A stretch of 64,000 nt of DNA from Minisyncoccota bacterium (GCA_041657885.1 JBBABB010000001.1:267184-331183), one strand, 5' to 3'. Shown: positions 10,717 through 60,305, numbered from the stretch's first letter. The notes: generated by a model not told the origin, from the sequence alone. Made by a program: numbers and translations.

Positions 10717-10761
10717 TATTTTACATTCTCACATTCTTGAGAATGTCGGAATGTTATTTTT

Positions 10762-12429
10762 TTAATTTATTTCTCTTTTGTAACAATCCTCACAGTATAT
10801 TTTATATTGGTTATGTTTTTCTTTGGGATATGTTGTTTGTGTTATATTACCACAAGAAGCACATTTCACTTCATTGAGAATTCTAGGATTTCGAGCATCC
10901 ATACGAGCTTGATGACGACAGTTGAAACATTTTGGTGGAATTGGTAATTTCATTCTTTTATAAAATGCAATTTCTCTTGAAATAAATTTATAATTATTAC
11001 CACAAGATTCACATTTCAAAATTTTATCAAGAAGCCCATCATCATTATACATCTCTGGATTTTTAGGTAAATCTTCATAATTACAATTTTCTTGCCCTTT
11101 TGTATGCGGAATATCATCTCGCCATCTAAATCCTTGCTCAATTGCCTCTTCTTTTGTAAGTGGCATATATTCATTAGCAATTGATTCATTATAACCAAAA
11201 GGACTCATCCAAATTGGAAAGAAGTTTCCCCAATCACCACTTTCTTTCATATTTTTAATAATTTGTGGCACAAGTTTTTCATATTCATCTTTGGGGTAAG
11301 GTTTATTTAAAATATGATATTCCTTATTTCGCAAACCAAAACAACCAAAACAATTCTTAGAATTATAGCAAGTATTCGAATAATACATGTAATTCGATTC
11401 TACAACGAGCTGTATCCCAATAACATTATTACTATTACCACCAGTTAAAACCTGATAACCGTACTCGACATCAACAGTAAAAGAAACATCTCGTGATTCA
11501 ATTGGGTTATTAACCGTATAACAATAACTACTATTTTCGCCTCCATTTTTTATATCAAAAGATTGTTGGACATTATGAGCATCATAAATATGATCCCCTG
11601 ACACATTATTATTATGAGACCCAAAGACAGTTCGCGTTGGCATTTTCTTTCTTAATTCTTCTCTTTTACCTAAAAAATATAAGATGCTTGCCTCACTATT
11701 TAGCGGATATTTTTCTAAAAATTTTTGATATTCTTCTTTTGTAAATTGTTCATTAAAAATACAATTATTTTTATGACGCAAGCCGACACAGCCAATACAA
11801 TTTACACAATCTCTGCAATCATAAAGTCCGATAGAATCTGCACAAGATTCACACTCTTGTGAATAAAATAATTTATTGCAGTTTACACAATCTATACACT
11901 CATAACAAAGCTCACATTTATTTATATAAAGATTATCTACACAATCAGTAGAATACCAAACAATATGTCCATAGTCACAATTTTCATCCTCAACACAACC
12001 AAAAATTAAATAACAATTTTTTGACCTAAGGGCAAAATTTGAATATTCACAATTTACACTATTTACATTAGTAATAGCAAAATGAGGCACTTTGTTTTCA
12101 AGTTCACCTAATTGTTCAATAAACGACTTGGTTAAATCTAAAGGAACAGCATATTCTCCTGCTTCCCAATCATCAGCCCACCATTCAGCGATATCCCAAA
12201 CAGGAAATGGAACATCAGGATTATACATAGAAATAATCATTTTGTTAGATTTGCTTGATGGTCGTTTATATAATGTTTTGAAATTTCTAAAAAGCATTTG
12301 CTGTTGTTGACGACATGTAGGGCAAAATTCTGGTACAGGTACTTTCATTCGATCGTAAAAAATATGATCATTCTGATCTACAATAAATCGATTTTTACAT
12401 TTTTGACAATTTTTTGTTTCTGTTTGCAT
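10762..12429 (-). CDS. Large cysteine-rich protein with N- and C-terminal CxxC zinc-ribbon modules (paralog 1 of 3 in the window; uncharacterised family)
   Basis: The 555 aa protein has more than 50 Cys. Terminal motifs of the form CxxC-x(n)-FY-x-K/R-x-K/D-V/L-P-x-P-x2-C-P/F-x-C-R are shared with the ORFs at 48864-50573 and 51444-53090. There is an internal duplicated block C.GC.GLR.K.Y.I.N.QY.KEEY. Confidence 0.6.
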   Translation of the reverse strand: MQTETKNCQKCKNRFIVDQNDHIFYDRMKVPVPEFCPTCRQQQQMLFRNFKTLYKRPSSKSNKMIISMYNPDVPFPVWDIAEWWADDWEAGEYAVPLDLTKSFIEQLGELENKVPHFAITNVNSVNCEYSNFALRSKNCYLIFGCVEDENCDYGHIVWYSTDCVDNLYINKCELCYECIDCVNCNKLFYSQECESCADSIGLYDCRDCVNCIGCVGLRHKNNCIFNEQFTKEEYQKFLEKYPLNSEASILYFLGKREELRKKMPTRTVFGSHNNNVSGDHIYDAHNVQQSFDIKNGGENSSYCYTVNNPIESRDVSFTVDVEYGYQVLTGGNSNNVIGIQLVVESNYMYYSNTCYNSKNCFGCFGLRNKEYHILNKPYPKDEYEKLVPQIIKNMKESGDWGNFFPIWMSPFGYNESIANEYMPLTKEEAIEQGFRWRDDIPHTKGQENCNYEDLPKNPEMYNDDGLLDKILKCESCGNNYKFISREIAFYKRMKLPIPPKCFNCRHQARMDARNPRILNEVKCASCGNITQTTYPKEKHNQYKIYCEDCYKREIN

Positions 12430-14576: not shown

Positions 14577-15770
14577 ATGAAAATTCTGGCGATTGAAACA
14601 TCGTGTGACGAAACAGGAATAAGTATATTGGAGGTGAAAAAACCTGCCTCGCGCCAAGGCGGGTCTGGTAAAAAAGATATTTTTAAAATTTTAGCCAATA
14701 ATATACATTCCCAAGTTGAAATTCACGCCCAATATGGCGGTGTTTTCCCTGCTCTGGCTAAAAGAGAACATATAAAGAATCTACCTATTCTTTTTGAAAA
14801 AACAATTAAACAAGCAAAAATAAAAATAGAACAAATTGATGCAATCGCTGTAACATATGGACCTGGTCTTGAACCAGCCCTTTGGACTGGAATAGTTTTT
14901 GCTAAGGAACTTTCAAAGAAATACAATATTCCAATCGTGAAAGTTAATCATATGGAGGGTCATATATTTTCTATATTTCCCAAAAAAAGAAAAACATTCA
15001 CAATTGATTCTGATAAAAAAATATTCCCAATGCTTTCACTTCTTGTTTCAGGTGGACACACTGAACTTATTTTAGTAAAAAATTGGCACAAATATAAAAA
15101 AATAGGGCAAACGCGAGATGATGCAGTTGGGGAAGCTTTTGATAAAGTAGCACGTATGCTTGGACTTCCCTATCCGGGAGGACCAGAGGTCTCAAAGCTG
15201 GCAGAAATAGAACGAGAAAAAATTCCCCTCTCGAGGGGTGGCTTGAAAAGTCGGGGTGGATGCATTCCACCTCCCCCTTCGGGTACTCCTCAAGAGGAGA
15301 ATCTGCAACTCCCACGTCCTATGATTTATTCAAAAGATTATGATTTCTCTTTTTCGGGATTAAAAACCGCAGTATTGTATCTAATAAGAGATTTAAAAAA
15401 AGAACATTCCGACATTCTTGAGAATGTCGGAATAAAACAAAAAATCGCAAAAGAATTTGAAGATGCGGTAGTTGAAACATTAGTATACAAAACAATAAAA
15501 GCAATTAAAGAATATAAAATAAAAACTCTTATTGTTGGTGGTGGGGTCTCGGCAAATAAATATTTACAGGAGATAATGAACAAAGAAGTAAAAAATCTAA
15601 ATTTTAGTAGTCGGACTACTAAAATTTTAACAAAAGTTCACTTCCCTTCTAAAAGTTTAACTGGAGATAATGCTCTTATGATTGCTATCGCTGGATATTT
15701 TCAATATAAAAATAAAAAAGGAGTAAAAAATTTAAATTCTATAAAAGCCAAAGGAAATTTATCTTTATGA
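14577..15770 (+). CDS. tsaD: tRNA N6-adenosine threonylcarbamoyltransferase TsaD (Kae1/Gcp family) with a roughly 30 aa in-frame GC-rich insertion
   Basis: MKILAIETSCDETGISIL... and the HMEGH metal site match TsaD. The segment IPLSRGGLKSRGGCIPPPPSGTPQEENLQLPRP, encoded by the GC-rich palindromic DNA at 15225-15318, is not part of canonical TsaD. Confidence 0.85.
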   Translation: MKILAIETSCDETGISILEVKKPASRQGGSGKKDIFKILANNIHSQVEIHAQYGGVFPALAKREHIKNLPILFEKTIKQAKIKIEQIDAIAVTYGPGLEPALWTGIVFAKELSKKYNIPIVKVNHMEGHIFSIFPKKRKTFTIDSDKKIFPMLSLLVSGGHTELILVKNWHKYKKIGQTRDDAVGEAFDKVARMLGLPYPGGPEVSKLAEIEREKIPLSRGGLKSRGGCIPPPPSGTPQEENLQLPRPMIYSKDYDFSFSGLKTAVLYLIRDLKKEHSDILENVGIKQKIAKEFEDAVVETLVYKTIKAIKEYKIKTLIVGGGVSANKYLQEIMNKEVKNLNFSSRTTKILTKVHFPSKSLTGDNALMIAIAGYFQYKNKKGVKNLNSIKAKGNLSL

Positions 15771-20220: not shown

Positions 20221-20392
20221 AATTTTTCTTTGGCTCGCCGTAGCGGAAGCGGAGGCGGCTATTATTAATTAATAAAGGATTTTCATTGTAACATAAAAAT
20301 AAAAATAAAAACAATTGTGCGAGTAGCGAGAATCGGACTCGCGTTTTTTGCTTGGGAAGCAAACATATTACCACTATATGATACTCGCATTT

Positions 20393-20918: not shown

Positions 20919-22808
20919 CTAATTGTTACTACCACGTATCATTTTTAAAAACACATCATGGGATATGTTTATTTTTGCGTTTGATTGCATTCTTTTCTTA
21001 CCCCTTTTTTGTTTCTCAAGCAACTTTTTCTTTCTACTCACATCCCCTCCACCCACAACTTTACTTCTGTGCATAAGAACATCCTTTCTGAAAGCAGACA
21101 CTGATTCTGATGATATAATTCGCCCTAATGCCTTCCCTTGAATTTTAAAAGCAAATTGCTGTCTTGGAATAATATCTTTTAATTTTTCAACTTGGGCTTT
21201 CGCTTCATCTGTCACTTTTCTTCGTGATACCACTCGACAAAATGCCACCATTGGTTCATCAGCGACAACGATATCAAGCCTAACAACATCAGCTTCTCTG
21301 TACTCACCTATTTCATACGAAATAGAAGAATACCCCGAAGTGATGCTTTTCATATCATCAAAAAAATTACGCATGAGTTCTCGTAATGGCATTTCTAAAT
21401 CAATCGAGGACCTGTTGTCTCCAAAATTATCAGTTCCTTTAACTATGGCTTCGTGGTCATAGAAGAATGGCATAAGAGAACTTATATAGGTTGATGGGGT
21501 GATAATTTTTACATTGACCCACGGCTCAAAAACTTTGACGATATTTCCATCATCAGGGAAAAGATGAGGTGAGTAAATAATTTCTTCTTTTCCATTACGA
21601 AGTAATACTTTGTAAGTAATAGAAGGCATTGTTACTATTAATTGTAAATTAAATTCACGACTCAACCTTTCTGTAATTATTTCTAAATGAAGCATCCCCA
21701 AAAAACCACAGCGATATCCTCTCCCAAGTGAACCTGAATTTTCTTCTTCATATGAAAAAGATGAATCTGATAGTCGTAGTCGCCCCAGTGCTTGTCTGAG
21801 ATTGGGAAAATCATCCTGACTTTCTGGGTACACAGAGGCCCAAACTACTGGTTTAGGATTTTTATACCCCGGTAAAGCAAGCATCGGCTTTTTAAGAAAA
21901 GTAATAGTATCTCCAACTGATGCAATTCCTGGTTTTTTAATACCTGTCACAATATAACCAATTTCTCCACTACTTAAAAATTCACGTGGTTGTTCTTCGG
22001 GAGAAAATGTCCCAACTTCAAGTGAAATAAATTTTTCGGCAGAAACTGCAAACAAAAGTGATTCTCCTTTTTTAAATCCTCCATTAACCACACGTACATA
22101 AACTATAACTCCTCTATGATTATCATATTTGAAATCAAAAACTAAAGCTCGCCCTGTGTTTGATGATAATGCTAAATTTTCTCCAATATGAGGACAAGGA
22201 ATCTTTTTTATTATTTCTTCAAGTAACATTGCCACACCCTCACCCGTTTTTCCCGAAACAAGTAAAATAGTGTCTGGGTCGATGTCTAAAAGTAGCGCCA
22301 CTTCCATTTTTATTTCTTCAACTCGAGCCAGTGATGAATCAATCTTGGAAAGTACTGGTATAATCACAAGCCCAGAATCACGCGCCATTTGTAAGGTAGT
22401 GAGTGTTTGAGCTTGCACGCCCTGAGTCGCGTCCACGAGCAAAATAGAGCCTTCTACGGCCTTAAGAGCGCGAGAAACTTCATAAGAGAAGTCAATATGC
22501 CCAGGCGTATCTATCAAATTCAAAATATAATTCTCACCCCCTCCATGCCTCCCCCAAGAGGAGAGGTTTTGAATTTCCCCTTCCCCTTTGGGGAGGGGTT
22601 GGGGTGAGGTGTACTCCATTCTAACGGGCTGCATTTTTATAGTAATACCACGTTCTCTTTCCAATTCCATTGAATCTAAAACTTGATCTTTCATTTTACG
22701 TTTTTCTATCGTGCCAGTTATTTCTATCATTCGGTCAGCCAAAGTACTCTTGCCATGGTCAATGTGGGCAATAATTGAAAAATTTCTGATATTCTTAATA
22801 TCTGTCAT
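20919..22808 (-). CDS. lepA: Elongation factor 4 (LepA) with an in-frame MITE-like insertion of about 26 aa in the GTPase domain
   Basis: FSIIAHIDHGKSTLADR, NLIDTPGH and the LepA C-terminal domain match EF4. The insertion SPQPLPKGEGEIQNLSSWGRHGGGEN is encoded by the GC-rich element at 22534-22612. Confidence 0.9.
   Translation of the reverse strand: MTDIKNIRNFSIIAHIDHGKSTLADRMIEITGTIEKRKMKDQVLDSMELERERGITIKMQPVRMEYTSPQPLPKGEGEIQNLSSWGRHGGGENYILNLIDTPGHIDFSYEVSRALKAVEGSILLVDATQGVQAQTLTTLQMARDSGLVIIPVLSKIDSSLARVEEIKMEVALLLDIDPDTILLVSGKTGEGVAMLLEEIIKKIPCPHIGENLALSSNTGRALVFDFKYDNHRGVIVYVRVVNGGFKKGESLLFAVSAEKFISLEVGTFSPEEQPREFLSSGEIGYIVTGIKKPGIASVGDTITFLKKPMLALPGYKNPKPVVWASVYPESQDDFPNLRQALGRLRLSDSSFSYEEENSGSLGRGYRCGFLGMLHLEIITERLSREFNLQLIVTMPSITYKVLLRNGKEEIIYSPHLFPDDGNIVKVFEPWVNVKIITPSTYISSLMPFFYDHEAIVKGTDNFGDNRSSIDLEMPLRELMRNFFDDMKSITSGYSSISYEIGEYREADVVRLDIVVADEPMVAFCRVVSRRKVTDEAKAQVEKLKDIIPRQQFAFKIQGKALGRIISSESVSAFRKDVLMHRSKVVGGGDVSRKKKLLEKQKRGKKRMQSNAKINISHDVFLKMIRGSNN
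22534..22612 (-). mobile_element. Solo MITE-like GC-rich element (family F) inserted in frame in lepA
   Basis: It reads ctcacccccctccatgcctcccccaagaggagaggttttgaatttccccttcccctttggggaggggttggggtgag, with terminal inverted repeats CTCACCCC/GGGGTGAG. It is related to the leuS copies. Confidence 0.55.
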
Positions 22809-27038: not shown

Positions 27039-29849
27039 CTAGACGACTATGTTGATAACTTTACCTGTAACATAAATAACTCTTTTAATCTCTTTATTCT
27101 CTGTCCAAGCGATTATACTCTTGTTTTTGAGGGCTATATTTTTAATTTCTTCTTCAGTTATATCCTTTGATATCATGATTTCAGCCCTAACTTTACCATT
27201 TACCTGTATTGCTATTTTTATTTCTTCTTCTATAATTTTCTTTTTGTCCCATTTTGGCCATTTACTTTTATTTATGGACTTTTTTTCTCCCAATAAATAC
27301 CATAACTCTTCTGTTATATGAGGGGCAAATGGCGAGAGAATTTGAAGAAACATTTTAAAATCTTTCTTCGTCACGCCGTAGCCTTTGGCGAAGGCGGATT
27401 CCATCTCATTTATCAATACCATCATAGATGAAACCGCTGTGTTGAAATTCATGGACTCTATATCTTCCGAAACTTTTTTGATTGTTTTATGAAGAAGCGT
27501 TTGAAACGAAGCAACCCCTCCTAAATCCTCCCCAGAAGGAAGGACTTTAAATTCCACTCCCTTCCCTTTGGGAAGGGTTGGGGATGGGTTGTAATGAATC
27601 CTCTCTCCTATTCGCCAAACTTTTTCAAGAAAACGACGCGACCCGATTATACTTTTTGTGTTCCAAACAACTGTCTGGTCGAATGGGCCCATAAACATTT
27701 CATAAAGTCGCAAAGTGTCTGCGCCATAAGTTTTCACGATATCGTCTGGATTAACAATATTGCCAAAGCGTTTAGACATTTTTCTCCCATCTTCACCGAT
27801 AATTAAACCAACTGATTGTAATTTCTTAAATGGTTCAAGAGTTGAAACAACTCCAATATCATAAAGGAATTTGTGCCAAAAACGAGCATAAATTAAATGC
27901 CTTGTGGCATGTTCAGCTCCGCCGACATAAAAATCAACTTGATTCCAATATTTTTCCTTTTTCTTATCAACTAGAGCTTTGTTGTTCTTTGGATCCATAT
28001 AACGCAAGTAATACCACGAACTCCCAGCCCATTGGGGCATTGTATTTGTTTCGCGTTTCATCATTTTTGCATTTTTACCTTTACCAACTTTAACATTTAC
28101 CCAATTAGAAATATTTGCCAGTGGTGATTCCCCTGTACCAGTTGGTTCATAAAATTTTACTCTTGGTAAAACAACTGGTAAATCTTTTTCCTTAATAGGA
28201 ACAATTTTGTCGCCATCGTGCAAAACAGGAATTGGTTCCCCCCAATAACGTTGTCTTGAAAATACCCAATCACGAAGTTTGTATTTTGTAACAATTTTTC
28301 CGCCAACTTCTTTGGTAATTTCATTAGCATCAACAAGCTGTCTATTAATAATTGGCAAGTTGTATTTTTCAGCAAATTCTTTATCACGACTGTCGTGTTG
28401 TGGTACTGCCATTATTGCTCCCGTGCCGTAACTAGCCAAAACATAATCCGCAATCCAGATTGGGATTTCTTCACCGTTTGCTGGATTTATCGCTTTTATT
28501 CCTTTTAATTCAACTCCTGTTTTTAGTTTATCTTCTCTAGTTCTTTCTATGTCTGTTTTGTTTTTAATTTGTTTTATATAATCTTCTACTTCTTTTTTAT
28601 TTGAAATATTATCAGAAAGTTTCTTCACTAATTCGTGTTCAGGTGCAAGTACAAGATAAGTAGCACCGAAAATAGTATCTGCCCGAGTAGTAAATACTTT
28701 AATACTTCCTAACTCAACCCCTCCTAAATCCTCCCCAAAGGGAAGGACTTTTAATGCTTTATTAATTTTATTTATAACAGAATCTATATTTTTTAAAACT
28801 TCTTCATTTTTAAATCTGATAACTTTAAAACCAAGTATTTTTAAAATTTCAGTTCTTTCTTCATCTTTTTCTTTTTGTAAGTCATGAATATCTCCATCAA
28901 CTTCTATTACTAAATTTTTTGAGAGACACACAAAATCAACAATGAATTTATTTATGATATGTTGTCTTCTAAAATGATATTCTTTATTCTTTTTTAAGAT
29001 TTGCCATAATTTTTTCTCAGCTTCTGTAGAGTTTTCACGCATCTCAAGAACCTTACCTTGAAGCAATTTCCATGTTTGTGAATCTGTCGTATAGTACCCC
29101 GGCATTTCTCCCTTCCCTTTGGGAAGGGCTGGGGATGGGTTCTTAATTTTAAATTCTATTTCACTTCCTTCTGACTTTCCTATCCAGTTTTTTTGACTTT
29201 CTTTAATTGATTCAGGCCAATTCAGTGAATCTAAATCTTTAAGTAATCTTTCAGCATAATCTGTAATGCGAAGCACCCATTGACGCATAGGTTTTTGTTC
29301 AACAAAAAAACCACAACGTTCACATTTACCATCTTCTACATCTTCATTAGCTAAACCAGTTTTGCAAGAAGGACACCAATTAATTGGTTCATACGATTCA
29401 TAAGCTAAACCTTTTTCTAAAAGTTTCAAAAATATCCATTGGGTCCATTTATAAAATTTCGGGTCAGTTGTATTTACTTCTCTAGACCAATCATAATCAA
29501 ATCCGAGTATTTCTAATTGTTTCTTAAAACGAATAACATTTTTAGGTACCGAAACAGCAGGATTAGTTTTAGTTTTTATGGCATAATTTTCAGCCGGAAG
29601 ACCAAAAGCATCAAAACCCATGGGATGCATAACGTTTGCTCCTTGCATTCTCTTCATTCTAGATATGACGTCAGTGGCAATATAACCCTTAGGATGACCA
29701 ACATGAAGACCTTCACCAGAAAGATATGGGAACATATCAAGCACATAATATTTAGGCTTTTTAGAAAAATCTAAAGTTTTATAAATTTTCTTCTTTTCCC
29801 AATCTTTTTGCCATTTTGATTCTATTTTTTTATGGTCGTATGTTTTCAT
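27039..29849 (-). CDS. leuS: Leucyl-tRNA synthetase carrying two in-frame MITE-like insertions, one with an embedded DUF559 (Vsr-like PD-(D/E)xK) endonuclease domain
   Basis: It is a class I aaRS with HVGHPKGY (HIGH), KMSKRFGN (KMSKS) and the LeuS editing domain, 936 aa in total. Between EIEFKIK and SIKVFTTRADT there is an insert of about 145 aa containing ...LWQILKKNKEYHFRRQHIINKFIVDFVCLSKNLVIEVDGDIHDLQKEKDEERTEILKILGFKVIRFKNEEV..., which matches DUF559. Confidence 0.9.
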   Translation of the reverse strand: MKTYDHKKIESKWQKDWEKKKIYKTLDFSKKPKYYVLDMFPYLSGEGLHVGHPKGYIATDVISRMKRMQGANVMHPMGFDAFGLPAENYAIKTKTNPAVSVPKNVIRFKKQLEILGFDYDWSREVNTTDPKFYKWTQWIFLKLLEKGLAYESYEPINWCPSCKTGLANEDVEDGKCERCGFFVEQKPMRQWVLRITDYAERLLKDLDSLNWPESIKESQKNWIGKSEGSEIEFKIKNPSPALPKGKGEMPGYYTTDSQTWKLLQGKVLEMRENSTEAEKKLWQILKKNKEYHFRRQHIINKFIVDFVCLSKNLVIEVDGDIHDLQKEKDEERTEILKILGFKVIRFKNEEVLKNIDSVINKINKALKVLPFGEDLGGVELGSIKVFTTRADTIFGATYLVLAPEHELVKKLSDNISNKKEVEDYIKQIKNKTDIERTREDKLKTGVELKGIKAINPANGEEIPIWIADYVLASYGTGAIMAVPQHDSRDKEFAEKYNLPIINRQLVDANEITKEVGGKIVTKYKLRDWVFSRQRYWGEPIPVLHDGDKIVPIKEKDLPVVLPRVKFYEPTGTGESPLANISNWVNVKVGKGKNAKMMKRETNTMPQWAGSSWYYLRYMDPKNNKALVDKKKEKYWNQVDFYVGGAEHATRHLIYARFWHKFLYDIGVVSTLEPFKKLQSVGLIIGEDGRKMSKRFGNIVNPDDIVKTYGADTLRLYEMFMGPFDQTVVWNTKSIIGSRRFLEKVWRIGERIHYNPSPTLPKGKGVEFKVLPSGEDLGGVASFQTLLHKTIKKVSEDIESMNFNTAVSSMMVLINEMESAFAKGYGVTKKDFKMFLQILSPFAPHITEELWYLLGEKKSINKSKWPKWDKKKIIEEEIKIAIQVNGKVRAEIMISKDITEEEIKNIALKNKSIIAWTENKEIKRVIYVTGKVINIVV
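27513..27591 (-). mobile_element. Solo family F MITE-like element (both terminal repeats adjacent, no cargo) inserted in frame in leuS
   Basis: It reads caacccctcctaaatcctccccagaaggaaggactttaaattccactcccttccctttgggaagggttggggatgggttg. In the leuS frame this gives NPSPTLPKGKGVEFKVLPSGEDLGGVA. Confidence 0.6.
28715..29141 (-). mobile_element. Family F element with cargo: about 427 bp, with terminal inverted repeats, encoding in frame with leuS a DUF559 endonuclease-like domain
   Basis: The ends caacccctcctaaatcctccccaaagggaaggactttt (28715-28752) and ctcccttccctttgggaagggctggggatgggtt (29108-29141) are inverted repeats. Translated in the leuS frame they give LPFGEDLGGVEL and NPSPALPKGKGE. Confidence 0.6.
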
Positions 29850-37005: not shown

Positions 37006-37935
37006 ATGAATAAAATCATTGTTATACTCGGCCAAACCTCTACTGGAAAGAGTGATTTTGCAGTAGAAGTAGCAAAAAATATAAATGGCGAAATAATTTC
37101 AGCAGATTCAAGACAAGTTTATAAAGGTATGAATTTAGGAACTGGTAAAATTACAAAAAAAGAAATGTGGGGTATACCGCATTATTTACTTGATATCACT
37201 TCCCCCTCACGAGTTTTTTCCGTTAGTGATTTCCAAAAATTGGCAAACAAAAAAATAAAAGAAATTTTAGAAAAAGGTAAAACTCCCATAATTTGTGGTG
37301 GTACAGGATTTTATATTGATTCCATCATAAATAGAACAATTTTCCCTGAAGTTCCACCAAATAAAAAACTCCGAGAAATTCTCGAGAGAAAAACCACAGA
37401 AAAACTTTTGGAAATATTAAAAAAAATAGATAAAAATCGCGCCCAAAATATTGACCAAAAAAATAGAATTCGCCTGATTCGTGCAATTGAAATAGTAAAA
37501 ACTCTCGGCAAGGTCCCAAGTCTTTCCCCTAGGCCGTGCCTAGGGGAAGATAAATATTTAAAAATTGGACTCACTATGCCACCTGAAGTTTTGAAAGAAA
37601 GAATCAAGACTCGTTTACTCATACGCATTAAAAAAGGTATGATAAAAGAAGTTGAAAATTTACACAATCAAGGCGTGTCTTGGAAACGAATGAATGCTCT
37701 TGGGCTTGAATATCGATACGTTAGTAATTATTTAAAAGATAGCAAAACCATGCCTCCGCTAAAGCTTCGGCAGGCGAAGAAAGAAATGATTGAAAAATTA
37801 AATACCGAGATTTGGCATTACGCTAAACGTCAAAAGACATGGTTTAAAAGAGATTTTAACACAATTTGGATAGACCCAAGAAAAAAGAGTGAGAAAAATA
37901 AAGCTCTAAAAGAGATAAAGAGATTTTTAAAATAG
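37006..37935 (+). CDS. miaA: tRNA dimethylallyltransferase MiaA (contains two in-frame GC-rich palindromes)
   Basis: The P-loop ILGQTSTGKSDFAVEVAK and the IPT-family motif SADSRQVYKGMNLGTGKI match MiaA. In-frame repeats lie at 37527-37547 (SPRPCLGE) and about 37751-37776. Confidence 0.8.
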   Translation: MNKIIVILGQTSTGKSDFAVEVAKNINGEIISADSRQVYKGMNLGTGKITKKEMWGIPHYLLDITSPSRVFSVSDFQKLANKKIKEILEKGKTPIICGGTGFYIDSIINRTIFPEVPPNKKLREILERKTTEKLLEILKKIDKNRAQNIDQKNRIRLIRAIEIVKTLGKVPSLSPRPCLGEDKYLKIGLTMPPEVLKERIKTRLLIRIKKGMIKEVENLHNQGVSWKRMNALGLEYRYVSNYLKDSKTMPPLKLRQAKKEMIEKLNTEIWHYAKRQKTWFKRDFNTIWIDPRKKSEKNKALKEIKRFLK

Positions 37936-39935: not shown

Positions 39936-41099
39936 TTATTTAATAACTCTTGGCAAAAGAGCACTTATCCTTGTTGTTGCTTCATAATTTATCGTTCCTG
40001 ACTCCTTAGCAATTTGTTCAGCAGTAATTTCATTTTTACCCCGCCTGCTCCCTCGTGAGGGCGGGCAGGCCTGTTTTCCTAAAATTACGACTTCATCCTC
40101 TGGCAACACATCTTTAATATGAGAAATATCAACTACAATCATATTCATAGCAACTCTCCCCAAAATTTTTGCTCTCTTACCTTTTACTAAAACTTCCCCA
40201 GTATTTGAAAGCAGACGTGGAATACCATCAGCATAACCCTGTGGAATTACTGCTATCTTGGTCGTTTTCTTTGTTATATATGTAAGCCCATAACCGATTG
40301 GATGATTCGCGGGGAGAACTTTAATCTGAGCTACGTGTGTCACCCATTTCAAAACTGGTTTCAAAATTATTTTCTTTTTATTTAAATATTCTAAATGTTC
40401 ACTTGGCCACATTCCATAAAGCCCGATACCAAGTCGAACAATATTGTGTAAGCTATTTCCTTTTTCATAAACTAGAATTCCAGAAGTTGCTGAAATGTGG
40501 GTTTTAATATTTTCAAAACTATTTTTTCTAAAAATTTCTACACATTTATGATACATATCTATTTGTTTCTGTGCGTAGGTGAAATTCATGGTGTCTTCAA
40601 TATTTGCAAAATGAGAATAAATTCCATCGAGTTCTATATTCTTCAACTTTTTGAGTTCAACAATAAAATTATCAATCTGGCTTGGCATTATTCCTTCTCT
40701 ACCAAGACAAGAATCAATAGCAACATGTACTTTGACTTTCATTTTTAAACTCCCAGCAATAAAATTTATTTTCAATAAATGAATCAAATCAAAAGCAGAT
40801 ATTATCGCTTTTGATTTTATGGCTCTTTTTATACCATCTCCATTCAAATAACCAAATACCAAAACGGGTTTATTTGTAACCTTTCCAACTCTTTCAAATT
40901 CTTCAATACTATTTACTTGGAAATAATCTGTATAAGGAGCAATAATTTTCGTCACCTCAACATCCCCATGCCCGTAAGCATTTGCTTTTATAACAGAAGC
41001 AATCTTTGTACCGTTTTTCAGTAATCCTCGAAACTGCTTGATATTATGTATCAAGTTTTCTTTTGAAATCTCTATATATGAAAGTGGTAAATTTTGCAT
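39936..41099 (-). CDS. alr: Alanine racemase with an in-frame family A palindrome insertion. Its start is revised to the internal Met because the longer ORF overlaps tRNA-Leu.
   Basis: ASVIKANAYGHGDVEV contains the PLP-lysine motif and the fold is Alr-like. QACPPSRGSRRGKNEI is encoded by ccccgcctgctccctcgtgagggcgggcagg at 40039-40069. The track ORF 39936-41177 would overlap the tRNA at 41102-41183. Confidence 0.75.
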   Translation of the reverse strand: MQNLPLSYIEISKENLIHNIKQFRGLLKNGTKIASVIKANAYGHGDVEVTKIIAPYTDYFQVNSIEEFERVGKVTNKPVLVFGYLNGDGIKRAIKSKAIISAFDLIHLLKINFIAGSLKMKVKVHVAIDSCLGREGIMPSQIDNFIVELKKLKNIELDGIYSHFANIEDTMNFTYAQKQIDMYHKCVEIFRKNSFENIKTHISATSGILVYEKGNSLHNIVRLGIGLYGMWPSEHLEYLNKKKIILKPVLKWVTHVAQIKVLPANHPIGYGLTYITKKTTKIAVIPQGYADGIPRLLSNTGEVLVKGKRAKILGRVAMNMIVVDISHIKDVLPEDEVVILGKQACPPSRGSRRGKNEITAEQIAKESGTINYEATTRISALLPRVIK

Positions 41100-41220: not shown

Positions 41221-42384
41221 TTATATTATCTCCGGTTCTTGCTCTAGTGTTATCCCAAATTTTTGCTCAACTATTTTTATTATTTCATTTCTAGCATTTA
41301 TAAGATCTTCTTTTGTAGCATTTCCGTTGTTTACCAAGACAAGGGCATTCTTGTCATAGACAGAAACATTACCAAATGACTTCCCTTTTAATCCTGCATT
41401 TTCAATGAGCCAACCAGCGGGAATTTTTACTAGGTCTTGCCTAGTCGTTTCCAGTGGAAAAAATTTAGCATTTGGGAAATCTGCTTTAATTTTATCGGCT
41501 ACACTATTTGAAACAATAGGATTCTTGAAAAATGAACCGACATTTGGAATTTCTTTTGGGTTTGGTAATTTTTCTTTACGAATTTCAATAATTGCTTCGC
41601 GAATTTGTTTTAAATTAGGATTCTCTATTTTGTGTTCTTCGAAATATTTTGAGACGCCAGGATATCCTAATGCTGGAGAAAGGTTTTTTTCTCCTCCTTG
41701 TTGAGGAGGAGTGCCCTTTGGGGCGAGGTGGTGACTAATTAATTCTAAATCACCACCCCCTACCCCCTCCTCCAAAAGGAGGGGAGGAACTTTATTAAGT
41801 CTATATGTTACAGCGGTTATTATGTATTTCCCTTTATCTTCATTTTTGAAAATACTATCACGGTACCCAAATTTACAATCTTTATTTGAAATAGTTTTAA
41901 TTTTATTTTCTTTGATATCAAAAACCTCCACTTCCAAAATGGTATCTTTAACTTCTACTCCATAAGCCCCGACATTTTGGACTGGCGTTGCTCCAACTGT
42001 TCCAGGAATTGCCGAAAGTGCCTCTAATCCTTGCAGATTCATTTCAACAGTTTTCTCTACAATTTTGTCCCAAATCTCGCCAGCTCCAACTTTTATATCT
42101 GCATATTTTTCCGTTTCGTTCCCGCCTGCTCCCTTGTGAGGGCGGGCAGGTATTATTTCAAAACCTTTAATTTCTATTTTTATAGCAAACACATCAATAA
42201 TTCCATCCGAAAATACAATATTTGAACCCCCGCCTAATATAAAAATTGGGGTATTTTTTTCTCTTGCCATTAAATAAACATTTCCTAGCTCATCTTTTTT
42301 ATCAATTTTTACAAAATAGCGAAATTGCCCTCCTATATGTAGTGATGAATAATCCCGGATATCTACGTATTCTTGTATTTTCAT
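41221..42384 (-). CDS. murB: UDP-N-acetylenolpyruvoylglucosamine reductase MurB with two in-frame GC-rich palindromic insertions
   Basis: It has an FAD-binding domain (ILGGGSNIVF) and a MurB C-terminal domain. Inserts occur at ARPHKGAGGNETEK (family A, 42111-42140) and VPPLLLEEGVGGGDLELISHHLAPKGTPPQQGGEK (41690-41790). Confidence 0.8.
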   Translation of the reverse strand: MKIQEYVDIRDYSSLHIGGQFRYFVKIDKKDELGNVYLMAREKNTPIFILGGGSNIVFSDGIIDVFAIKIEIKGFEIIPARPHKGAGGNETEKYADIKVGAGEIWDKIVEKTVEMNLQGLEALSAIPGTVGATPVQNVGAYGVEVKDTILEVEVFDIKENKIKTISNKDCKFGYRDSIFKNEDKGKYIITAVTYRLNKVPPLLLEEGVGGGDLELISHHLAPKGTPPQQGGEKNLSPALGYPGVSKYFEEHKIENPNLKQIREAIIEIRKEKLPNPKEIPNVGSFFKNPIVSNSVADKIKADFPNAKFFPLETTRQDLVKIPAGWLIENAGLKGKSFGNVSVYDKNALVLVNNGNATKEDLINARNEIIKIVEQKFGITLEQEPEII

Positions 42385-56755: not shown

Positions 56756-56858
56756 AAAATTTATATGTTAAATTGTTTTATAAAATCGACTCCTTTTTTC
56801 TCTCTAATACTATAATTGTAATACAAACAACAAAAAAAGAAAACAAGCCAACCAAATA

Positions 56859-56890
56859 ACATTCTCACATTCTTGAGAATGTGAGAATGT
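56859..56890. repeat. Family E perfect palindrome (acattctcacattcttgagaatgtgagaatgt) immediately downstream of the ArsR-family gene
   Basis: It is a 32-bp near-perfect inverted repeat. Related copies lie at 57184-57219, 10723-10754 and 15403-15432. Confidence 0.8.
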
Positions 56891-57171
56891 TAAAATTGGC
56901 TAATAAAAAGACAGAAATTCTTTCCGTAGGGGGAAATAGTATGTTCTACTTTGCGTCCTCTATATGATTTATTTAGCAAACCGGCTTGAACTAGACGTCG
57001 AGTATGTTCAGATATAGTTTTCATATTACAATCCAGACTCTCTGCAATATCTTCTAATGTAATCCCTGAATTTTTAAACACAAGCATTAATATCGCAATA
57101 CGACGATGATTTGCTACTCCCTTAAAATGCCTTTCAAGTTGTTTGGCTGTTTTTAATTTATTTGTTTTCAT
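56890..57171 (-). CDS. ArsR/SmtB-family winged-helix transcriptional regulator
   Basis: The 93 aa protein has an HTH in ANHRRIAILMLVFKNSGITLEDIAESLDCNMKTISEHTRRLVQAGLL followed by a wing (SYRGRKVEHTI). Confidence 0.65.
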   Translation of the reverse strand: MKTNKLKTAKQLERHFKGVANHRRIAILMLVFKNSGITLEDIAESLDCNMKTISEHTRRLVQAGLLNKSYRGRKVEHTISPYGKNFCLFISQF

Positions 57172-57183
57172 ATTTTTATTCTA

Positions 57184-57219
57184 CCACATTCCGACATTCT
57201 TGAGAATGTCGGAATGTGG
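57184..57219. promoter_or_regulatory. Family E 36-bp perfect palindrome (ccacattccgacattcttgagaatgtcggaatgtgg) in the promoter region of the ArsR-family gene; candidate operator
   Basis: It lies between the sppA stop (57234) and the ArsR start (57171). It shares the core ACATTCTTGAGAATGT with three other copies. Confidence 0.5.
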
Positions 57220-57233
57220 TTTAATACTTATTT

Positions 57234-58774: not shown

Positions 58775-59374
58775 TTATTTTTTCCAGATAATATGTCCAT
58801 TAATACTATGCTTTTCATAAGTTTCTAGGATATCGGTACAAAACTTTTCTAATTCCCTATTATTTTCACTTTTTGCTAATTCATATAAACGAATGAACAT
58901 TCTCTTGCCAGTTTCGGTTTGTTTTAAATTTTTCTTAATAAAATTATGTTGTGAGCATAAAATTTGTCCATTTTCAATTGTTGCTTCACCTCCAAGATCT
59001 TTGGGTTTTATATGATCAACATGTAAATCAATACCGTCTTTTTTACCTCTGCCACAAATTACACATTTATATCCATCTCTTTTCAGAATTATCACTTTTT
59101 GAGCAACAGTAAAATCTTCCAATTCTCTTTTGTATGCTTTATCGGGATCATATTTATAAATCCCTTTTGCAATTTTTATTAAAAAACCACTTTGAGATAA
59201 ATGACGAATAGCTCTGTCGGGGTCACGAAAAACATTGCCTGTTCTTTTCAGATAAGTTGATACCACCCAATCAACAACTTCTGGGTGTTTTATATCTCTA
59301 TTTGGATTTTTCTTAAAAAACTCAATAATAAGGTTTTTTTGAATATTATTATTTTTCTTATTGTTTTTTTTCAT
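58775..59374 (-). CDS. HNH endonuclease (candidate restriction endonuclease partner of the adjacent methyltransferase)
   Basis: The 199 aa protein has an HNH/zinc-finger core DGYKCVICGRGKKDGIDLHVDHIKPKDLGGEATIENGQILCSQHN. The N-terminal winged-helix-like domain is K-rich. Confidence 0.65.
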   Translation of the reverse strand: MKKNNKKNNNIQKNLIIEFFKKNPNRDIKHPEVVDWVVSTYLKRTGNVFRDPDRAIRHLSQSGFLIKIAKGIYKYDPDKAYKRELEDFTVAQKVIILKRDGYKCVICGRGKKDGIDLHVDHIKPKDLGGEATIENGQILCSQHNFIKKNLKQTETGKRMFIRLYELAKSENNRELEKFCTDILETYEKHSINGHIIWKK

Positions 59375-59378
59375 AAAA

Positions 59379-60305
59379 TTATTTCAATAAATTTAATTGA
59401 TTAATTTTTGCTTCTTCTTGTAAGCGTTTTATTGCCATATTACAATAATCTTTATCTATATCAATACCAATTCCTTTTCTATTATGTAAATAAGAAGCAA
59501 TAAGAGTTGACCCACTACCTAAAAATGGATCCAATACTATATCACCAATAAAACTAAAAAGTTTTATGCATCGTTTTGGTAATTCAACTGGAAATGGTGC
59601 AGGATGTCCACCTGCCCCCTTTTTACTTTGTCCATTAAATGTCCAAATGCCATTTGTCCAATCCATAAATTCTTTTTTAGTAATATCATTTTCTCTACTA
59701 TTTCCAGTTTTTTTCCAGCTATCTTTATATAAAACTAATATTAGTTCTACTGGTGCAATAACATAAGGAGCAGAGGCAGACATAAAAGAACCCCATGCGG
59801 TACGACGAGATATATTTCCTTCGTTCCAAATAATTGTTGAGTGATATTTCCAGCCAACATCTTTTGCAATTTTTGTAATATCCGCACCAACAGACTTCTG
59901 TCCTCCTTTATTTTTATCAAGTGGAATGTTGAGTAAAAATCGTCCTTCATTTTTAGCTAAATCAAAACATTTTTTAATCCATTTTTGAGTAAATTCTAAA
60001 TAATCTTCATAGGTTAAATTATCACCATTGGAATTATAATGAATGTCAACATTATATGGTGGCGAAGTAATAATCAAATCAACTGAATTGTTTGGAATTG
60101 TGGAAATTTTTAAAATATCATCATTAAAAATTTTTATATTCTTTGTTTCAAAATAAACCCCATCCATTTTTTTTGCAATTGGAACAGAGTATGAGGCCAC
60201 TGAAGTCTCGCGAACTAAATCATTTTTCAAAGATGGTTTTTTATAATATTTCCTGATTATTTTTTGTGTTTTTTTATAAATCTTTTTTTGTTTTTTATTT
60301 TTCAT
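59379..60305 (-). CDS. DNA methyltransferase, beta-class amino-MTase (N4-cytosine or N6-adenine)
   Basis: Motif IV DLIITSPPYN precedes motif I VLDPFLGSGSTLIAS, the beta permutation found in PF01555 N4/N6 methyltransferases. Confidence 0.75.
   Translation of the reverse strand: MKNKKQKKIYKKTQKIIRKYYKKPSLKNDLVRETSVASYSVPIAKKMDGVYFETKNIKIFNDDILKISTIPNNSVDLIITSPPYNVDIHYNSNGDNLTYEDYLEFTQKWIKKCFDLAKNEGRFLLNIPLDKNKGGQKSVGADITKIAKDVGWKYHSTIIWNEGNISRRTAWGSFMSASAPYVIAPVELILVLYKDSWKKTGNSRENDITKKEFMDWTNGIWTFNGQSKKGAGGHPAPFPVELPKRCIKLFSFIGDIVLDPFLGSGSTLIASYLHNRKGIGIDIDKDYCNMAIKRLQEEAKINQLNLLK

What the first reader, a model, noticed from the sequence alone, without database searches (positions are those of the whole stretch)
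56859..57219. A 32-36 bp perfect palindrome (core ACATTCTTGAGAATGT) brackets the ArsR-family regulator gene and recurs upstream of murD and inside tsaD
There are four copies of this long, exact inverted repeat: 56859-56890, 57184-57219, 10723-10754 and 15403-15432. Two sit immediately 5' and 3' of the ArsR/SmtB-family gene. ArsR-family repressors bind long inverted repeats that overlap their own promoters, so the 57184-57219 copy is a plausible autoregulatory operator. The copy at 10723-10754 would then place murD under the same regulator. However the tsaD copy is intragenic and in frame (HSDILENVGI), which fits a REP-like mobile palindrome better. Both readings are testable.
Basis: partly seen in the sequence, partly recalled or inferred. 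Interest (0 to 1): 0.6.

Follow-up and report, generated by a model that had tools for sequence, protein, structure and literature searches.

The report
Conserved palindrome paired with small regulator
A 32-36 bp near-palindrome that brackets a tiny DNA-binding-protein gene is conserved almost letter for letter across the Patescibacteria (CPR); it looks like that protein's own operator, and it has also been copied to a few other places per genome, including in frame inside essential genes.

Summary
The four copies are real (8 strand-matches against 0.11 expected). They are near-palindromes, not perfect ones: the centre TTGA is asymmetric and copy 3 has a mismatched spacer.

The unit is aAC-ATTC-NN-ACATTC-T(TG/CA)A-GAATGT-NN-GAAT-GTt. 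It is not genome-specific. An exact 24-base pattern hit at least 120 loci in very diverse CPR lineages.

The bracketed gene encodes a 93-aa ArsR/MarR-like winged-helix protein with no metal sites. It has at least 1,700 homologue clusters, none with a specific name.

In 80 loci chosen by the protein alone, 85% have the palindrome upstream and 90% have it overlapping the stop codon. The palindrome centre supplies the -35 box. The -10 box sits 17 bp from TTCTCA or TTGAGA, shifting 3 bp with centre orientation, and the mRNA appears leaderless. Three protein substitutions co-vary with three site variants.

So the autoregulatory-operator reading is well supported for 57184-57219.

The other copies behave like REP or RPE elements. 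There is about one per 60 kb, plus a cluster within 3 kb of the gene. They avoid divergent promoter spacers and lack a correctly spaced -10 box. About 8% lie in genes, always in one frame (HSNILENVGM). The murD copy is absent in relatives and is not a promoter operator.

I found no literature on this pairing.

The parts
57184..57219 (.). Upstream palindrome (ACCACATTCCGACATTCTTGAGAATGTCGGAATGTGGT). Proposed autoregulatory operator of the winged-helix gene; its centre is the -35 box.
   Evidence: 24-nt arms, 92% complementary. An equivalent copy is present upstream in 64 of 75 protein-selected loci. RNA fold -30.3 kcal/mol, z -10.2.
57178..57206 (-). Promoter of the winged-helix gene: -35 TTCTCA (57206-57201), 17-nt spacer, TG-extended -10 TAGAAT (57183-57178). 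Six nt separate the -10 box from the ATG at 57171, so the mRNA is probably leaderless.
   Evidence: consensus scan; across loci the -10 box starts 18 nt from the centre when the centre reads TCAA and 21 nt when it reads TTGA, which gives a 17-bp spacer in both cases.
56890..57171 (-). 93-aa ArsR/MarR-like winged-helix protein. Recognition helix NMKTISEHTRRLVQ. No CXC or alpha-5 metal site.
   Evidence: Pfam MarR 9e-7 and HTH_5 1.7e-6. NCBIfam ArsR/SmtB 39.3 bits, below the cut-off of 55. PDB profile best hit HlyU 8.5e-9. AF2 pLDDT 92.9 with a wHTH topology. At least 1,700 homologue clusters with only generic names.
56857..56892 (.). Downstream palindrome with 17-bp perfect arms, overlapping the TAA stop codon (56890-56892). 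Second binding site and/or terminator-like hairpin.
   Evidence: I6. (terminator-like on the - strand, weak T tail). The downstream copy overlaps the stop codon, in three recurrent registers, in most loci; 69 of 77 protein-selected loci have a downstream copy.
10723..10754 (.). Dispersed copy in the 45-nt spacer between the stop of a 555-aa zinc-ribbon protein gene (10762) and the murD start (10716), both on the - strand. Spacers are mismatched (TC..CG).
   Evidence: Relatives L201 and L204 have a 1-nt spacer and no palindrome. RNA fold -12.9 kcal/mol.
15404..15433 (.). Dispersed copy in frame inside tsaD (14577-15770, +), encoding HSDILENVGI in a variable loop.
   Evidence: The same position carries the exact peptide in 8 of 120 TsaD homologues. 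The palindrome DNA is conserved, with one compensatory change, against diverged flanks.

Best explanation
The palindrome is the cognate DNA site of the small ArsR/MarR-like winged-helix protein that it brackets.

The upstream copy carries the -35 box of the gene's own promoter in its centre and covers the spacer. Bound protein should therefore shut off its own leaderless transcript, which is negative autoregulation. The second copy overlaps the stop codon, giving a compact palindrome-gene-palindrome cassette.

The same 32-bp module has been copied to other places. A few copies lie within about 3 kb of the gene and roughly one lies every 60 kb elsewhere. They survive where they do least harm: 3' ends, intercistronic spacers, and one tolerated reading frame inside loops of housekeeping proteins. 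This is the behaviour of REP or RPE elements.

At those sites the palindrome most likely still binds the protein, acting as a roadblock, insulator or architectural site rather than as a promoter operator.

Shown: the conservation, the cassette architecture, the promoter geometry, the protein-site covariation, the distribution, and the presence/absence at murD.

Inferred: actual binding, repression, the effect at dispersed sites, and the copying mechanism.
For: - Breadth: an exact 24-base pattern matched at least 120 loci in diverse CPR lineages. There were 139 exact and 34 near copies, with 0 in shuffles.
- Adjacency: the winged-helix gene is adjacent in 28 of 120 motif-selected loci.
- Cassette: in 80 protein-selected metagenome loci, 64/75 have an upstream copy, 69/77 a downstream copy and 59/72 both. 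The apparent exceptions carry diverged variants.
- Promoter geometry: the -10 position tracks centre orientation and gives a 17-bp spacer in both cases. About 74% of upstream copies have a good -10 box exactly there, against a 3-4% background.
- Covariation: R59 substituted with centre TGCA, 8/11 against 0/83. S54G with ACATCC/GGATGT, 8/8 against 0/86. Wing R73T/N with GAATAG, 5/5 against 0/89.
- Paralogues: paralogues with different site types sit on one contig, each bracketed by its own type.
- Dispersed copy tracks the protein: one copy 1.8 kb from an R59-substituted gene is also TGCA-centred.
- DNA-level constraint in tsaD: 2 of 30 bases differ in the palindrome, both compensatory, against about 22% divergence in the flanks.
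- Insertional behaviour: the murD spacer is 45 nt in the window against 1 nt in relatives. The peptide is present or absent in loops of YchF, Mur ligase, TspO and TsaD.
Against: - No binding experiment exists.
- Each covariation is probably one clade, so there are about three events, and the sites are physically linked to the gene.
- Dispersed copies show no promoter features and avoid divergent spacers. A regulatory role there is therefore conjecture.
- Symmetric compensatory changes within single sites, and variable complementary stem extensions, fit selection on a hairpin, or arm-to-arm conversion, as well as they fit protein symmetry.
- No copying mechanism was identified: there are no target-site duplications and no transposase nearby.
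- The patchy intact state in TsaD could reflect gene conversion rather than selection.
Confidence: 0.6

Rival explanations
1. A purely structure-driven selfish palindrome, REP-like or MITE-like. The hairpin spreads and is kept by DNA-level processes. The winged-helix gene merely acquired copies at its ends and uses one as a promoter. The protein does not recognise the repeat.
For: - Distribution is REP-like: convergent 14-18 against divergent 1-3, tight intercistronic spacers, and 8% in frame in genes.
- Stems extend with variable complementary flanks.
- Single sites carry compensatory arm changes.
- AT-rich copies sit as islands in 65-69% GC Planctomycetota contigs.
- The window also carries other families of in-frame hairpin insertions.
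Against: - The sequence is conserved across a superphylum rather than being genome-specific.
- Copy number is low.
- 82-90% of homologous genes keep the bracket.
- Protein substitutions co-vary with site variants, and paralogues keep distinct site types on one contig.
- There are no target-site duplications, and no RAYT or transposase was seen among neighbours.
- There were no hits in viral contigs.
Confidence: 0.14
2. A classical regulon. Every copy is an operator that controls the promoter of the adjacent gene (murD, tsaD and others) through the same repressor.
For: - The autoregulatory site is convincing.
- Some gene families recur next to or around copies: TspO in 12 of 106 loci, plus Zincin_1, Mur ligases and YchF.
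- Copies cluster within 3 kb of the regulator gene.
Against: - There is no -10 enrichment at the promoter spacing for non-regulator copies: 4.3% against a 3.9% background.
- Divergent spacers are avoided and convergent ones favoured.
- Only 22 of about 400 site-sides have a gene start within 16 nt.
- The murD site is absent in close relatives.
- Neighbouring genes are functionally heterogeneous.
Confidence: 0.1
3. An RNA-level element. The transcribed hairpin acts as a terminator, a 3'-end stabiliser or a processing site, as E. coli REPs do, independently of the protein.
For: - Hairpins are very stable: -13 to -30 kcal/mol, z -6 to -10.
- Copies favour 3' ends.
- The downstream copy in the window is flagged terminator-like.
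- About a quarter of sides have a T-rich tail.
Against: - T-tracts are no more frequent on the side of incoming transcription: 23% against 28%, p = 0.52.
- Spacer positions are often unpaired.
- RNA structure does not explain sequence identity across phyla, the -35 role, or the protein covariation.
- No Rfam family reached its gathering score on the window apart from six tRNAs.
Confidence: 0.1
4. A centromere-like or nucleoid-organising system. The winged-helix protein nucleates on clustered palindromes near its gene and on scattered sites, as with AspA, ParB-parS or MatP-matS.
For: - Profile similarity to the pNOB8 centromere-binding protein AspA (E 2e-4; Foldseek TM 0.71-0.78).
- Sites lie inside genes and between them without regard to promoters.
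- Sites cluster around the gene.
Against: - Clustering of neighbour proteins gave no recurrent ParA/ParB-like partner. Only the 14 largest clusters were inspected and about 28 neighbour proteins were run through Pfam.
- The AspA similarity is generic to winged-helix folds; MarR and HlyU score better.
- Position relative to the origin or terminus could not be examined.
Confidence: 0.06

Closest known systems
ArsR/SmtB-family autorepressors (SmtB, CzrA, CadC, HlyU, PagR) with inverted-repeat operators over their own promoters
   Same: - Small winged-helix protein of about 90-120 aa, with Pfam HTH_5 and MarR matches.
- Best solved relatives are HlyU, CadC and SmtB.
- A long inverted repeat overlaps the -35 box and spacer of its own promoter.
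- From memory: SmtB and CzrA bind 12-2-12 repeats, which resembles the four-hexamer site here.
   Different: - No alpha-3N (CXC) or alpha-5 metal site, and below the NCBIfam ArsR/SmtB cut-off.
- The site is longer (6-2-6-4-6-2-6).
- A second copy overlaps the stop codon.
- The operator is conserved across a superphylum and dispersed, including in frame in genes.
REP elements and their RAYT transposases
   Same: - Short imperfect palindromes at 3' ends and intercistronic spacers.
- A dedicated gene flanked by two copies of the repeat.
- No target-site duplications.
   Different: - The flanked gene encodes a non-catalytic winged-helix protein, not an HUH/Y1 transposase.
- An estimated one to two dozen copies per genome, not hundreds.
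- The sequence is shared by very distant lineages rather than being species-specific.
- About 8% of copies lie inside genes.
Rickettsia palindromic elements (RPE)
   Same: - Palindromic elements found in frame, in one phase, in unrelated housekeeping genes, adding a conserved peptide. PMC10969869 describes RPEs this way.
- Here 22 of 26 open-frame cases, and essentially all genuine genes, read HSNIL(E/K)NVGM.
   Different: - RPEs are about 150 bp, come in about ten families, and are restricted to Rickettsia.
- This element is about 32 bp, has a cognate DNA-binding protein, and doubles as a promoter/operator.
Widely conserved operator-regulator pairs such as CIRCE-HrcA or parS-ParB (from memory)
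   Same: - A palindromic site conserved nearly base for base over very large phylogenetic distances, together with its binding protein.
- A few to tens of copies per genome.
- parS sites are also often intragenic.
   Different: - Those sites are 16-27 bp and arise by point mutation.
- Here the site is 32-36 bp, shows insertion-like presence/absence, brackets its own gene, and is confined essentially to CPR.

Membership tests
ArsR/SmtB family | Winged helix-turn-helix fold (helices, beta-hairpin wing, C-terminal helix) with a family-level sequence match | tested here: met
   - AF2 model pLDDT 92.9: H9-33, H39-45, H50-62, beta 66-79, H81-92.
- Pfam HTH_5 28.2 bits (cut-off 22) and MarR 29.1 bits (cut-off 24.6).
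- PDB profile hits to HlyU, CadC and ArsR.
- It cannot be separated from MarR-like folds by Foldseek.
ArsR/SmtB family | NCBIfam subfamily model 'metalloregulator ArsR/SmtB' at or above its cut-off | tested here: not met
   39.3 bits against a cut-off of 55.
ArsR/SmtB family | Metal or metalloid sensing site (alpha-3N CXC or alpha-5 Asp/His cluster) | tested here: not met
   Read directly from the sequence and alignments. There is no CXC motif and no His/Asp cluster in the C-terminal helix. The only Cys residues (C48, C87) are not conserved across the family.
ArsR/SmtB family | Binds an inverted repeat overlapping its own promoter and represses it | not testable with these tools
   The geometry fits and there is protein-site covariation. 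Binding and repression need an experiment.
REP/RAYT | Repeat-flanked gene encodes an HUH/Y1 (RAYT) transposase | tested here: not met
   The flanked gene is a 93-aa winged-helix protein. No RAYT or transposase-like family appeared in the largest neighbour clusters inspected.
REP/RAYT | Hundreds of extragenic copies, with a sequence specific to a species or genus | tested here: not met
   About 1 copy per 62 kb away from the regulator gene. The same 24 specified bases occur in at least 120 loci across CPR lineages. About 8% of copies are intragenic. Whole-genome counts were not obtainable.
MITE | Terminal inverted repeats plus target-site duplications | tested here: not met
   Flanking direct repeats are at control level over 246 sites, for k = 3-6. 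The TATTTT flanks at the murD copy are a single AT-rich case.
RPE-like in-frame palindromic insertions | Same element in one reading phase inside unrelated protein genes, present or absent among orthologues | tested here: met
   - 22 of 26 open-frame cases are in one phase.
- The peptide is present or absent in YchF, Mur ligase, TspO and TsaD alignments.
- In TsaD the segment is homologous to a same-length segment in most relatives, so not every case is a simple insertion.
Intrinsic terminator | GC-containing hairpin followed by a U-tract in the direction of transcription | tested here: not met
   T-rich tails occur on 23% of sides with incoming transcription and 28% of sides without (p = 0.52). 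The single window copy 56892-56857 (-) passes the loose scan.
ParB-parS / AspA-type partition system | Centromere-binding protein encoded together with a ParA-type ATPase partner | tested here: inconclusive
   329 neighbour proteins from 106 loci fall into 235 clusters. No ParA-like family was seen among the 14 largest clusters or among about 28 neighbour proteins run through Pfam. Most neighbours were not annotated, so absence is not established.

The most novel reading that the evidence does not exclude
The pair may be a previously undescribed kind of dispersed-repeat system, confined essentially to the Patescibacteria. A non-catalytic winged-helix protein and its 32-bp palindrome would form a self-bracketed cassette whose site is propagated through the genome by hairpin-mediated copying or gene conversion. 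The propagated sites are then kept under DNA-level constraint because the bound protein works there, for example as a roadblock terminator or insulator in genomes with almost no intergenic space. This would be a REP-RAYT-like architecture without a transposase, doubling as a minimal global DNA-binding network.
Probability: 0.3. Interest if true: 0.85.

Novelty: new variant of a known kind. Interest (0 to 1): 0.68.

Why it matters
CPR/Patescibacteria make up a large share of bacterial diversity, have tiny genomes with few regulators, and almost none of their regulation has been worked out.

This gives a concrete, testable protein-site pair that is present across the group:
- a defined promoter architecture (a -35 box inside the operator, a leaderless mRNA);
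- candidate specificity-determining residues (S54, R59, R73);
- a defined consensus for locating candidate sites in any CPR genome.

If the dispersed copies are functional, it would show how a minimal genome wires a DNA-binding network by copying an operator, even into coding sequence.

If they are selfish, it is a REP/RPE-like element with an unusual protein partner and unusual cross-phylum conservation.

It also flags that 10-residue insertions in CPR housekeeping proteins can be DNA elements rather than protein features.

Tried and rejected
- **Rfam.** A gathering-threshold search of the whole window found only six tRNAs.
- **Literature.** No paper contains the core sequence or the peptide. 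No relevant paper was found on CPR palindromes, operators or REPs.
- **Viral contigs.** No exact matches, so there is no sign of a phage vehicle.
- **Target-site duplications.** At control level over 246 sites.
- **Terminator reading.** T-tracts are not oriented with incoming transcription.
- **Dispersed copies as promoters.** No -10 box at the 17-bp spacing.
- **The arm TGTGAGAAT as a built-in extended -10 box for adjacent leaderless genes.** The GA spacer is not enriched beside gene starts, 32% against 33%.
- **G-U against A-C mismatch asymmetry as evidence for RNA.** Uninformative without strand assignment; mismatches concentrate in the two spacer positions.
- **Conserved synteny around the regulator.** Weak. 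329 neighbours fall into 235 clusters; only TspO (12 of 106) and Zincin_1 (6) recur.
- **PADLOC and PHROGs.** Only generic HTH-domain matches.
- **Integron attC-like cassettes.** Considered because palindromes punctuate co-directional small genes near the regulator. No integrase was seen, and the idea was not tested further.
- **Structure prediction.** It was redone with database homologues.
- **Whole-genome copy counts.** Not obtainable.

Full report
**1. Observation**

The four copies are present at the stated coordinates. The 16-nt core gives 8 strand-matches at up to 2 mismatches, against 0.11 expected in shuffles.

The unit is ACATTC-NN-ACATTC-TTGA-GAATGT-NN-GAATGT. It is a near-palindrome:
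- the central TG is asymmetric, and all four copies read TTGA on the + strand;
- the spacer dinucleotides are TC..GA (copy at 56859), CG..CG (57184 and 15403) and the hybrid TC..CG (10723);
- arms reach 17 bp (56857-56892) and 24 bp at 92% complementarity (57177-57226).

As single strands the copies fold at -13 to -30 kcal/mol, with z-scores of -6 to -10.

Two copies bracket a 93-aa gene (56890-57171, -). One fills most of the 45-nt spacer between a 555-aa zinc-ribbon protein gene and murD. One encodes HSDILENVGI in frame in tsaD. The window is 29-37% GC in 4-kb windows. Its closest relatives in the databases are Nomurabacteria-type CPR sequences.

**2. The repeat is not genome-specific**

Nearly all are Patescibacteria: Saccharibacteria, Nomura-, Zambryski-, Jorgensen-, Adler-, Wolfe-, Uhr-, Moran- and Doudnabacteria, among others.

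A weight matrix built from the 139 exact copies found 34 further near-copies and none in shuffled loci.

The consensus extends to aAC...GTt. Beyond that, flanks often continue the stem with variable but complementary sequence. The mean extension is 2.1 bp beyond AC/GT and the maximum is 9. From base composition I would expect about 0.4 bp by chance; that figure was not computed.

Mismatches between the arms concentrate in the two spacer positions. There was no match in viral contigs and no Rfam family on the window apart from six tRNAs. No paper contains the sequence or the encoded peptide.

**3. The bracketed gene and the cassette**

The protein is a winged-helix protein:
- Pfam MarR 9e-7 and HTH_5 1.7e-6;
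- the NCBIfam ArsR/SmtB model scores below its cut-off;
- the PDB profile search gives HlyU (8.5e-9), Lmo1102, CadC and, weakly, AspA;
- the AF2 model has pLDDT 92.9 and canonical helix-wing topology;
- Foldseek places it among MarR, SlyA, HlyU and SmtB.

It has no CXC or alpha-5 metal site. At least 1,700 homologue clusters at 90% identity exist. The few source names among the 120 listed are generic, such as MarR-family or predicted transcriptional regulator.

A homologue lies next to the motif in 28 of 120 motif-selected loci, at 41-84% identity across Saccharibacteria and Parcubacteria.

In an independent sample of 80 metagenome loci chosen by the protein alone:
- 64 of 75 assessable loci have a copy upstream;
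- 69 of 77 have a copy at the 3' end;
- 59 of 72 have both.

The apparent exceptions carry diverged versions of the same palindrome.

The downstream copy overlaps the stop codon in three recurring registers:
- TGA is the palindrome centre, so the protein ends ..FQHS*;
- TAA is formed by a TA spacer plus the next A;
- TAA sits at the palindrome edge, as in the window.

A distant subfamily at 41-44% identity ends ..FLRMLE*, which is also encoded by the palindrome.

**4. Promoter and operator**

Upstream copies are followed by a TATAAT-like box. That box ends about 6 nt before the ATG, so the mRNA is probably leaderless.

The start of the -10 box lies 18 nt from the palindrome centre when the centre reads TCAA towards the gene (15 of 28). 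It lies 21 nt away when the centre reads TTGA (10 of 34). This 3-nt shift is what is expected if the -35 box is TTCTCA in one orientation and TTGAGA in the other, each with a 17-bp spacer.

A good -10 box sits at the expected place for 18.5% of all directions of regulator-adjacent copies. The maximum would be 25% if one direction in four is the promoter. The background is about 3-4%.

In the window the scan finds TTCTCA-17-TAGAAT with an upstream TG at 57206-57178 on the - strand. A protein bound to the palindrome would therefore cover the -35 box and the spacer. That is the classical geometry of negative autoregulation.

**5. Protein-site covariation**

Among 94 distinct proteins with a flanking site:

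| Protein change | Site change | With the protein change | Without it | Fisher p |
|---|---|---|---|---|
| Second Arg of TRRL (R59) substituted | Centre TGCA | 8 of 11 | 0 of 83 | 1.5e-9 |
| S54G (KTIGEH, with V61Y) | Outer hexamers ACATCC/GGATGT | 8 of 8 | 0 of 86 | 9e-12 |
| Wing R73T/N | Outer GAATAG | 5 of 5 | 0 of 89 | 1.8e-8 |

Both flanking copies change together. A dispersed copy 1.8 kb away in L185 is also TGCA-centred. Contigs with two paralogues (L142, L169, L075) keep two site types, each bracketing its own gene.

Each pattern is probably a single clade, so this amounts to about three events, and the p-values overstate independence. It is still the pattern expected for direct recognition of the centre, the inner hexamers and the outer hexamers.

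**6. The other copies**

*Density.* Away from the regulator gene the density is about 1 per 62 kb. Within 2 kb of the gene it is 1.2-1.4 per 10 kb, falling to about 0.1 per 10 kb beyond 3 kb. By rough extrapolation to a 0.6-1 Mb genome, that gives perhaps one to two dozen copies. This figure is my estimate, not a count.

*Genes near the regulator.* The palindromes there punctuate co-directional, functionally unrelated small genes: SNase, NUDIX, YggU, EndoIII-like, DAGK, DUF3175, Zincin_1, NYN, DUF559 and an S49 peptidase. TspO is a neighbour in 12 of 106 loci, most often downstream.

*Intergenic position.* Dispersed intergenic copies favour convergent (14-18) and co-directional spacers over divergent ones (1-3), although the two kinds of gene pair are about equally common. 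They often fill the whole spacer.

*Features they lack:*
- no -10 box at the promoter spacing (4.3% against 3.9%);
- no oriented T-tract;
- no target-site duplication;
- no enrichment of the -10-like GA arm next to gene starts.

*Copies inside genes.* About 8% of 269 unique sites lie inside long open frames. Of 26 such cases, 22 are in one phase, reading HS(N/D/H)IL(E/K)NV(G/R)(M/I). The four exceptions look like non-genic open frames. If the five stop-free frame and orientation classes were equally likely, this would have a probability of about 2e-9 (my arithmetic).

The hosts are housekeeping proteins: TsaD (at two different positions), YchF, MurC/D-type ligases, MnmA and TspO. In alignments the peptide sits in variable loops. 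Close orthologues share it and others lack it, sometimes with the centre flipped (E against K).

**7. The two dispersed copies in the window**

*murD.* Syntenic regions from four related genomes were fetched.
- In L201 and L204 the zinc-ribbon gene stop and the murD start are 1 nt apart.
- In L202 the zinc-ribbon gene is absent and murE abuts murD.
- None of the four has a palindrome at this junction.
- The window has TATTTT + 32 nt + TATTTTT there.

So this copy is a lineage-specific insertion into an operon junction. The only promoter-like match places the -10 box on the murD ATG. Any effect on murD would be through a roadblock or through mRNA structure, not through a promoter operator.

*tsaD.* Of the 120 closest TsaD homologues (63-100% identity):
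- 8 carry the exact peptide at the same position, and about 8 carry near versions;
- most have a same-length homologous segment, KNPNILEDINI;
- about 11 have a shorter ELTDEIK.

On a neighbour-joining tree the intact state is scattered over at least six places.

At DNA level, the window, L203 and L204 share the palindrome. The window and L203 differ at only two bases, a compensatory CG..CG to CA..TG change. Flanking codons differ at about 22% of positions, by my count.

This copy is therefore old. It is kept intact in some lineages by selection on DNA or by conversion from other copies, and it has decayed in others.

**8. Interpretation**

The best-supported model is a cognate protein-site pair. 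The upstream copy is an autoregulatory operator and promoter. The site has also been propagated as a low-copy REP/RPE-like element.

It fails the defining tests of REP/RAYT (no transposase, low copy number, not species-specific) and of MITEs (no target-site duplications).

What the protein does at dispersed sites is open. The candidates are a roadblock or insulator, an architectural role, or nothing. The copying mechanism is also unknown.

**9. Limits**
- There are no binding data.
- Gene calls in fetched loci are simple ORF calls.
- MAG labels outside CPR may reflect mis-binning. However, two high-GC Planctomycetota contigs carry the AT-rich element as an island.
- Whole-genome counts could not be made.

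Noticed in passing
window 10501-10536, 40040-40069, 42121-42150; also 9549-9575, 37522-37551, 10170-10205, 20228-20263, 27372-27399, 22531-22615, 29110-29140, 41702-41788: The 33%-GC window carries about 60 short GC-rich segments, many of them small hairpins. One family, CCCGCCTGCTCCC..GTGAGGGCGGGCAGG, recurs three times. It lies in frame in murD, encoding ..PARPHDSSGAGG... TsaD, MurD and ValRS have similar odd GC-rich peptide insertions. This is a second class of in-frame palindromic insertion in the same genome.
   Followed up: partly
protein P0202 (TsaD homologue), segment homologous to window 15404-15433: A GC-rich insertion, PARPHDSLASLPYGSRQGAGG, sits exactly in the middle of the decayed ACATTC-palindrome segment (NPNIL|...|DDINIK). 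One hairpin element appears to have landed in the centre of another.
   Followed up: no
L052 1365-1437: In the closest genome-collection relative (regulator 84% identical), the left arm of the downstream palindrome is expanded into about nine tandem 8-mers (ACATTCTA)n. Two palindromes sit upstream of the gene.
   Followed up: no
L053 1031-1058 (68.5% GC) and L102 7248-7275 (65% GC): The AT-rich palindrome occurs as an island in high-GC contigs labelled Planctomycetota. In L053 it ends a 368-aa ORF with ..TFSHS*, using the central TGA as stop, as many regulator genes do. This suggests transfer beyond CPR or chimeric assembly.
   Followed up: partly
L142 235-1745 and L169 17-2900; L075: Two paralogous winged-helix cassettes sit on one contig. 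Each is bracketed by its own palindrome variant, canonical ACATTC against ACATCC..ACAAAC. They look like orthogonal protein-site pairs.
   Followed up: partly
L204 1038-7895: The 555-aa zinc-ribbon-rich protein gene upstream of murD in the window (10762-12429) is present as four tandem genes of similar size (552-576 aa) in one relative. It is single in L201 and absent in L202 and L203. Homology among the four was not checked.
   Followed up: no
window 58775-60305: An HNH-type endonuclease-like ORF (199 aa) and a DNA methyltransferase-like ORF (308 aa) lie about 1.5 kb from the regulator cassette. This reading is from their sequences only; they were not examined.
   Followed up: no
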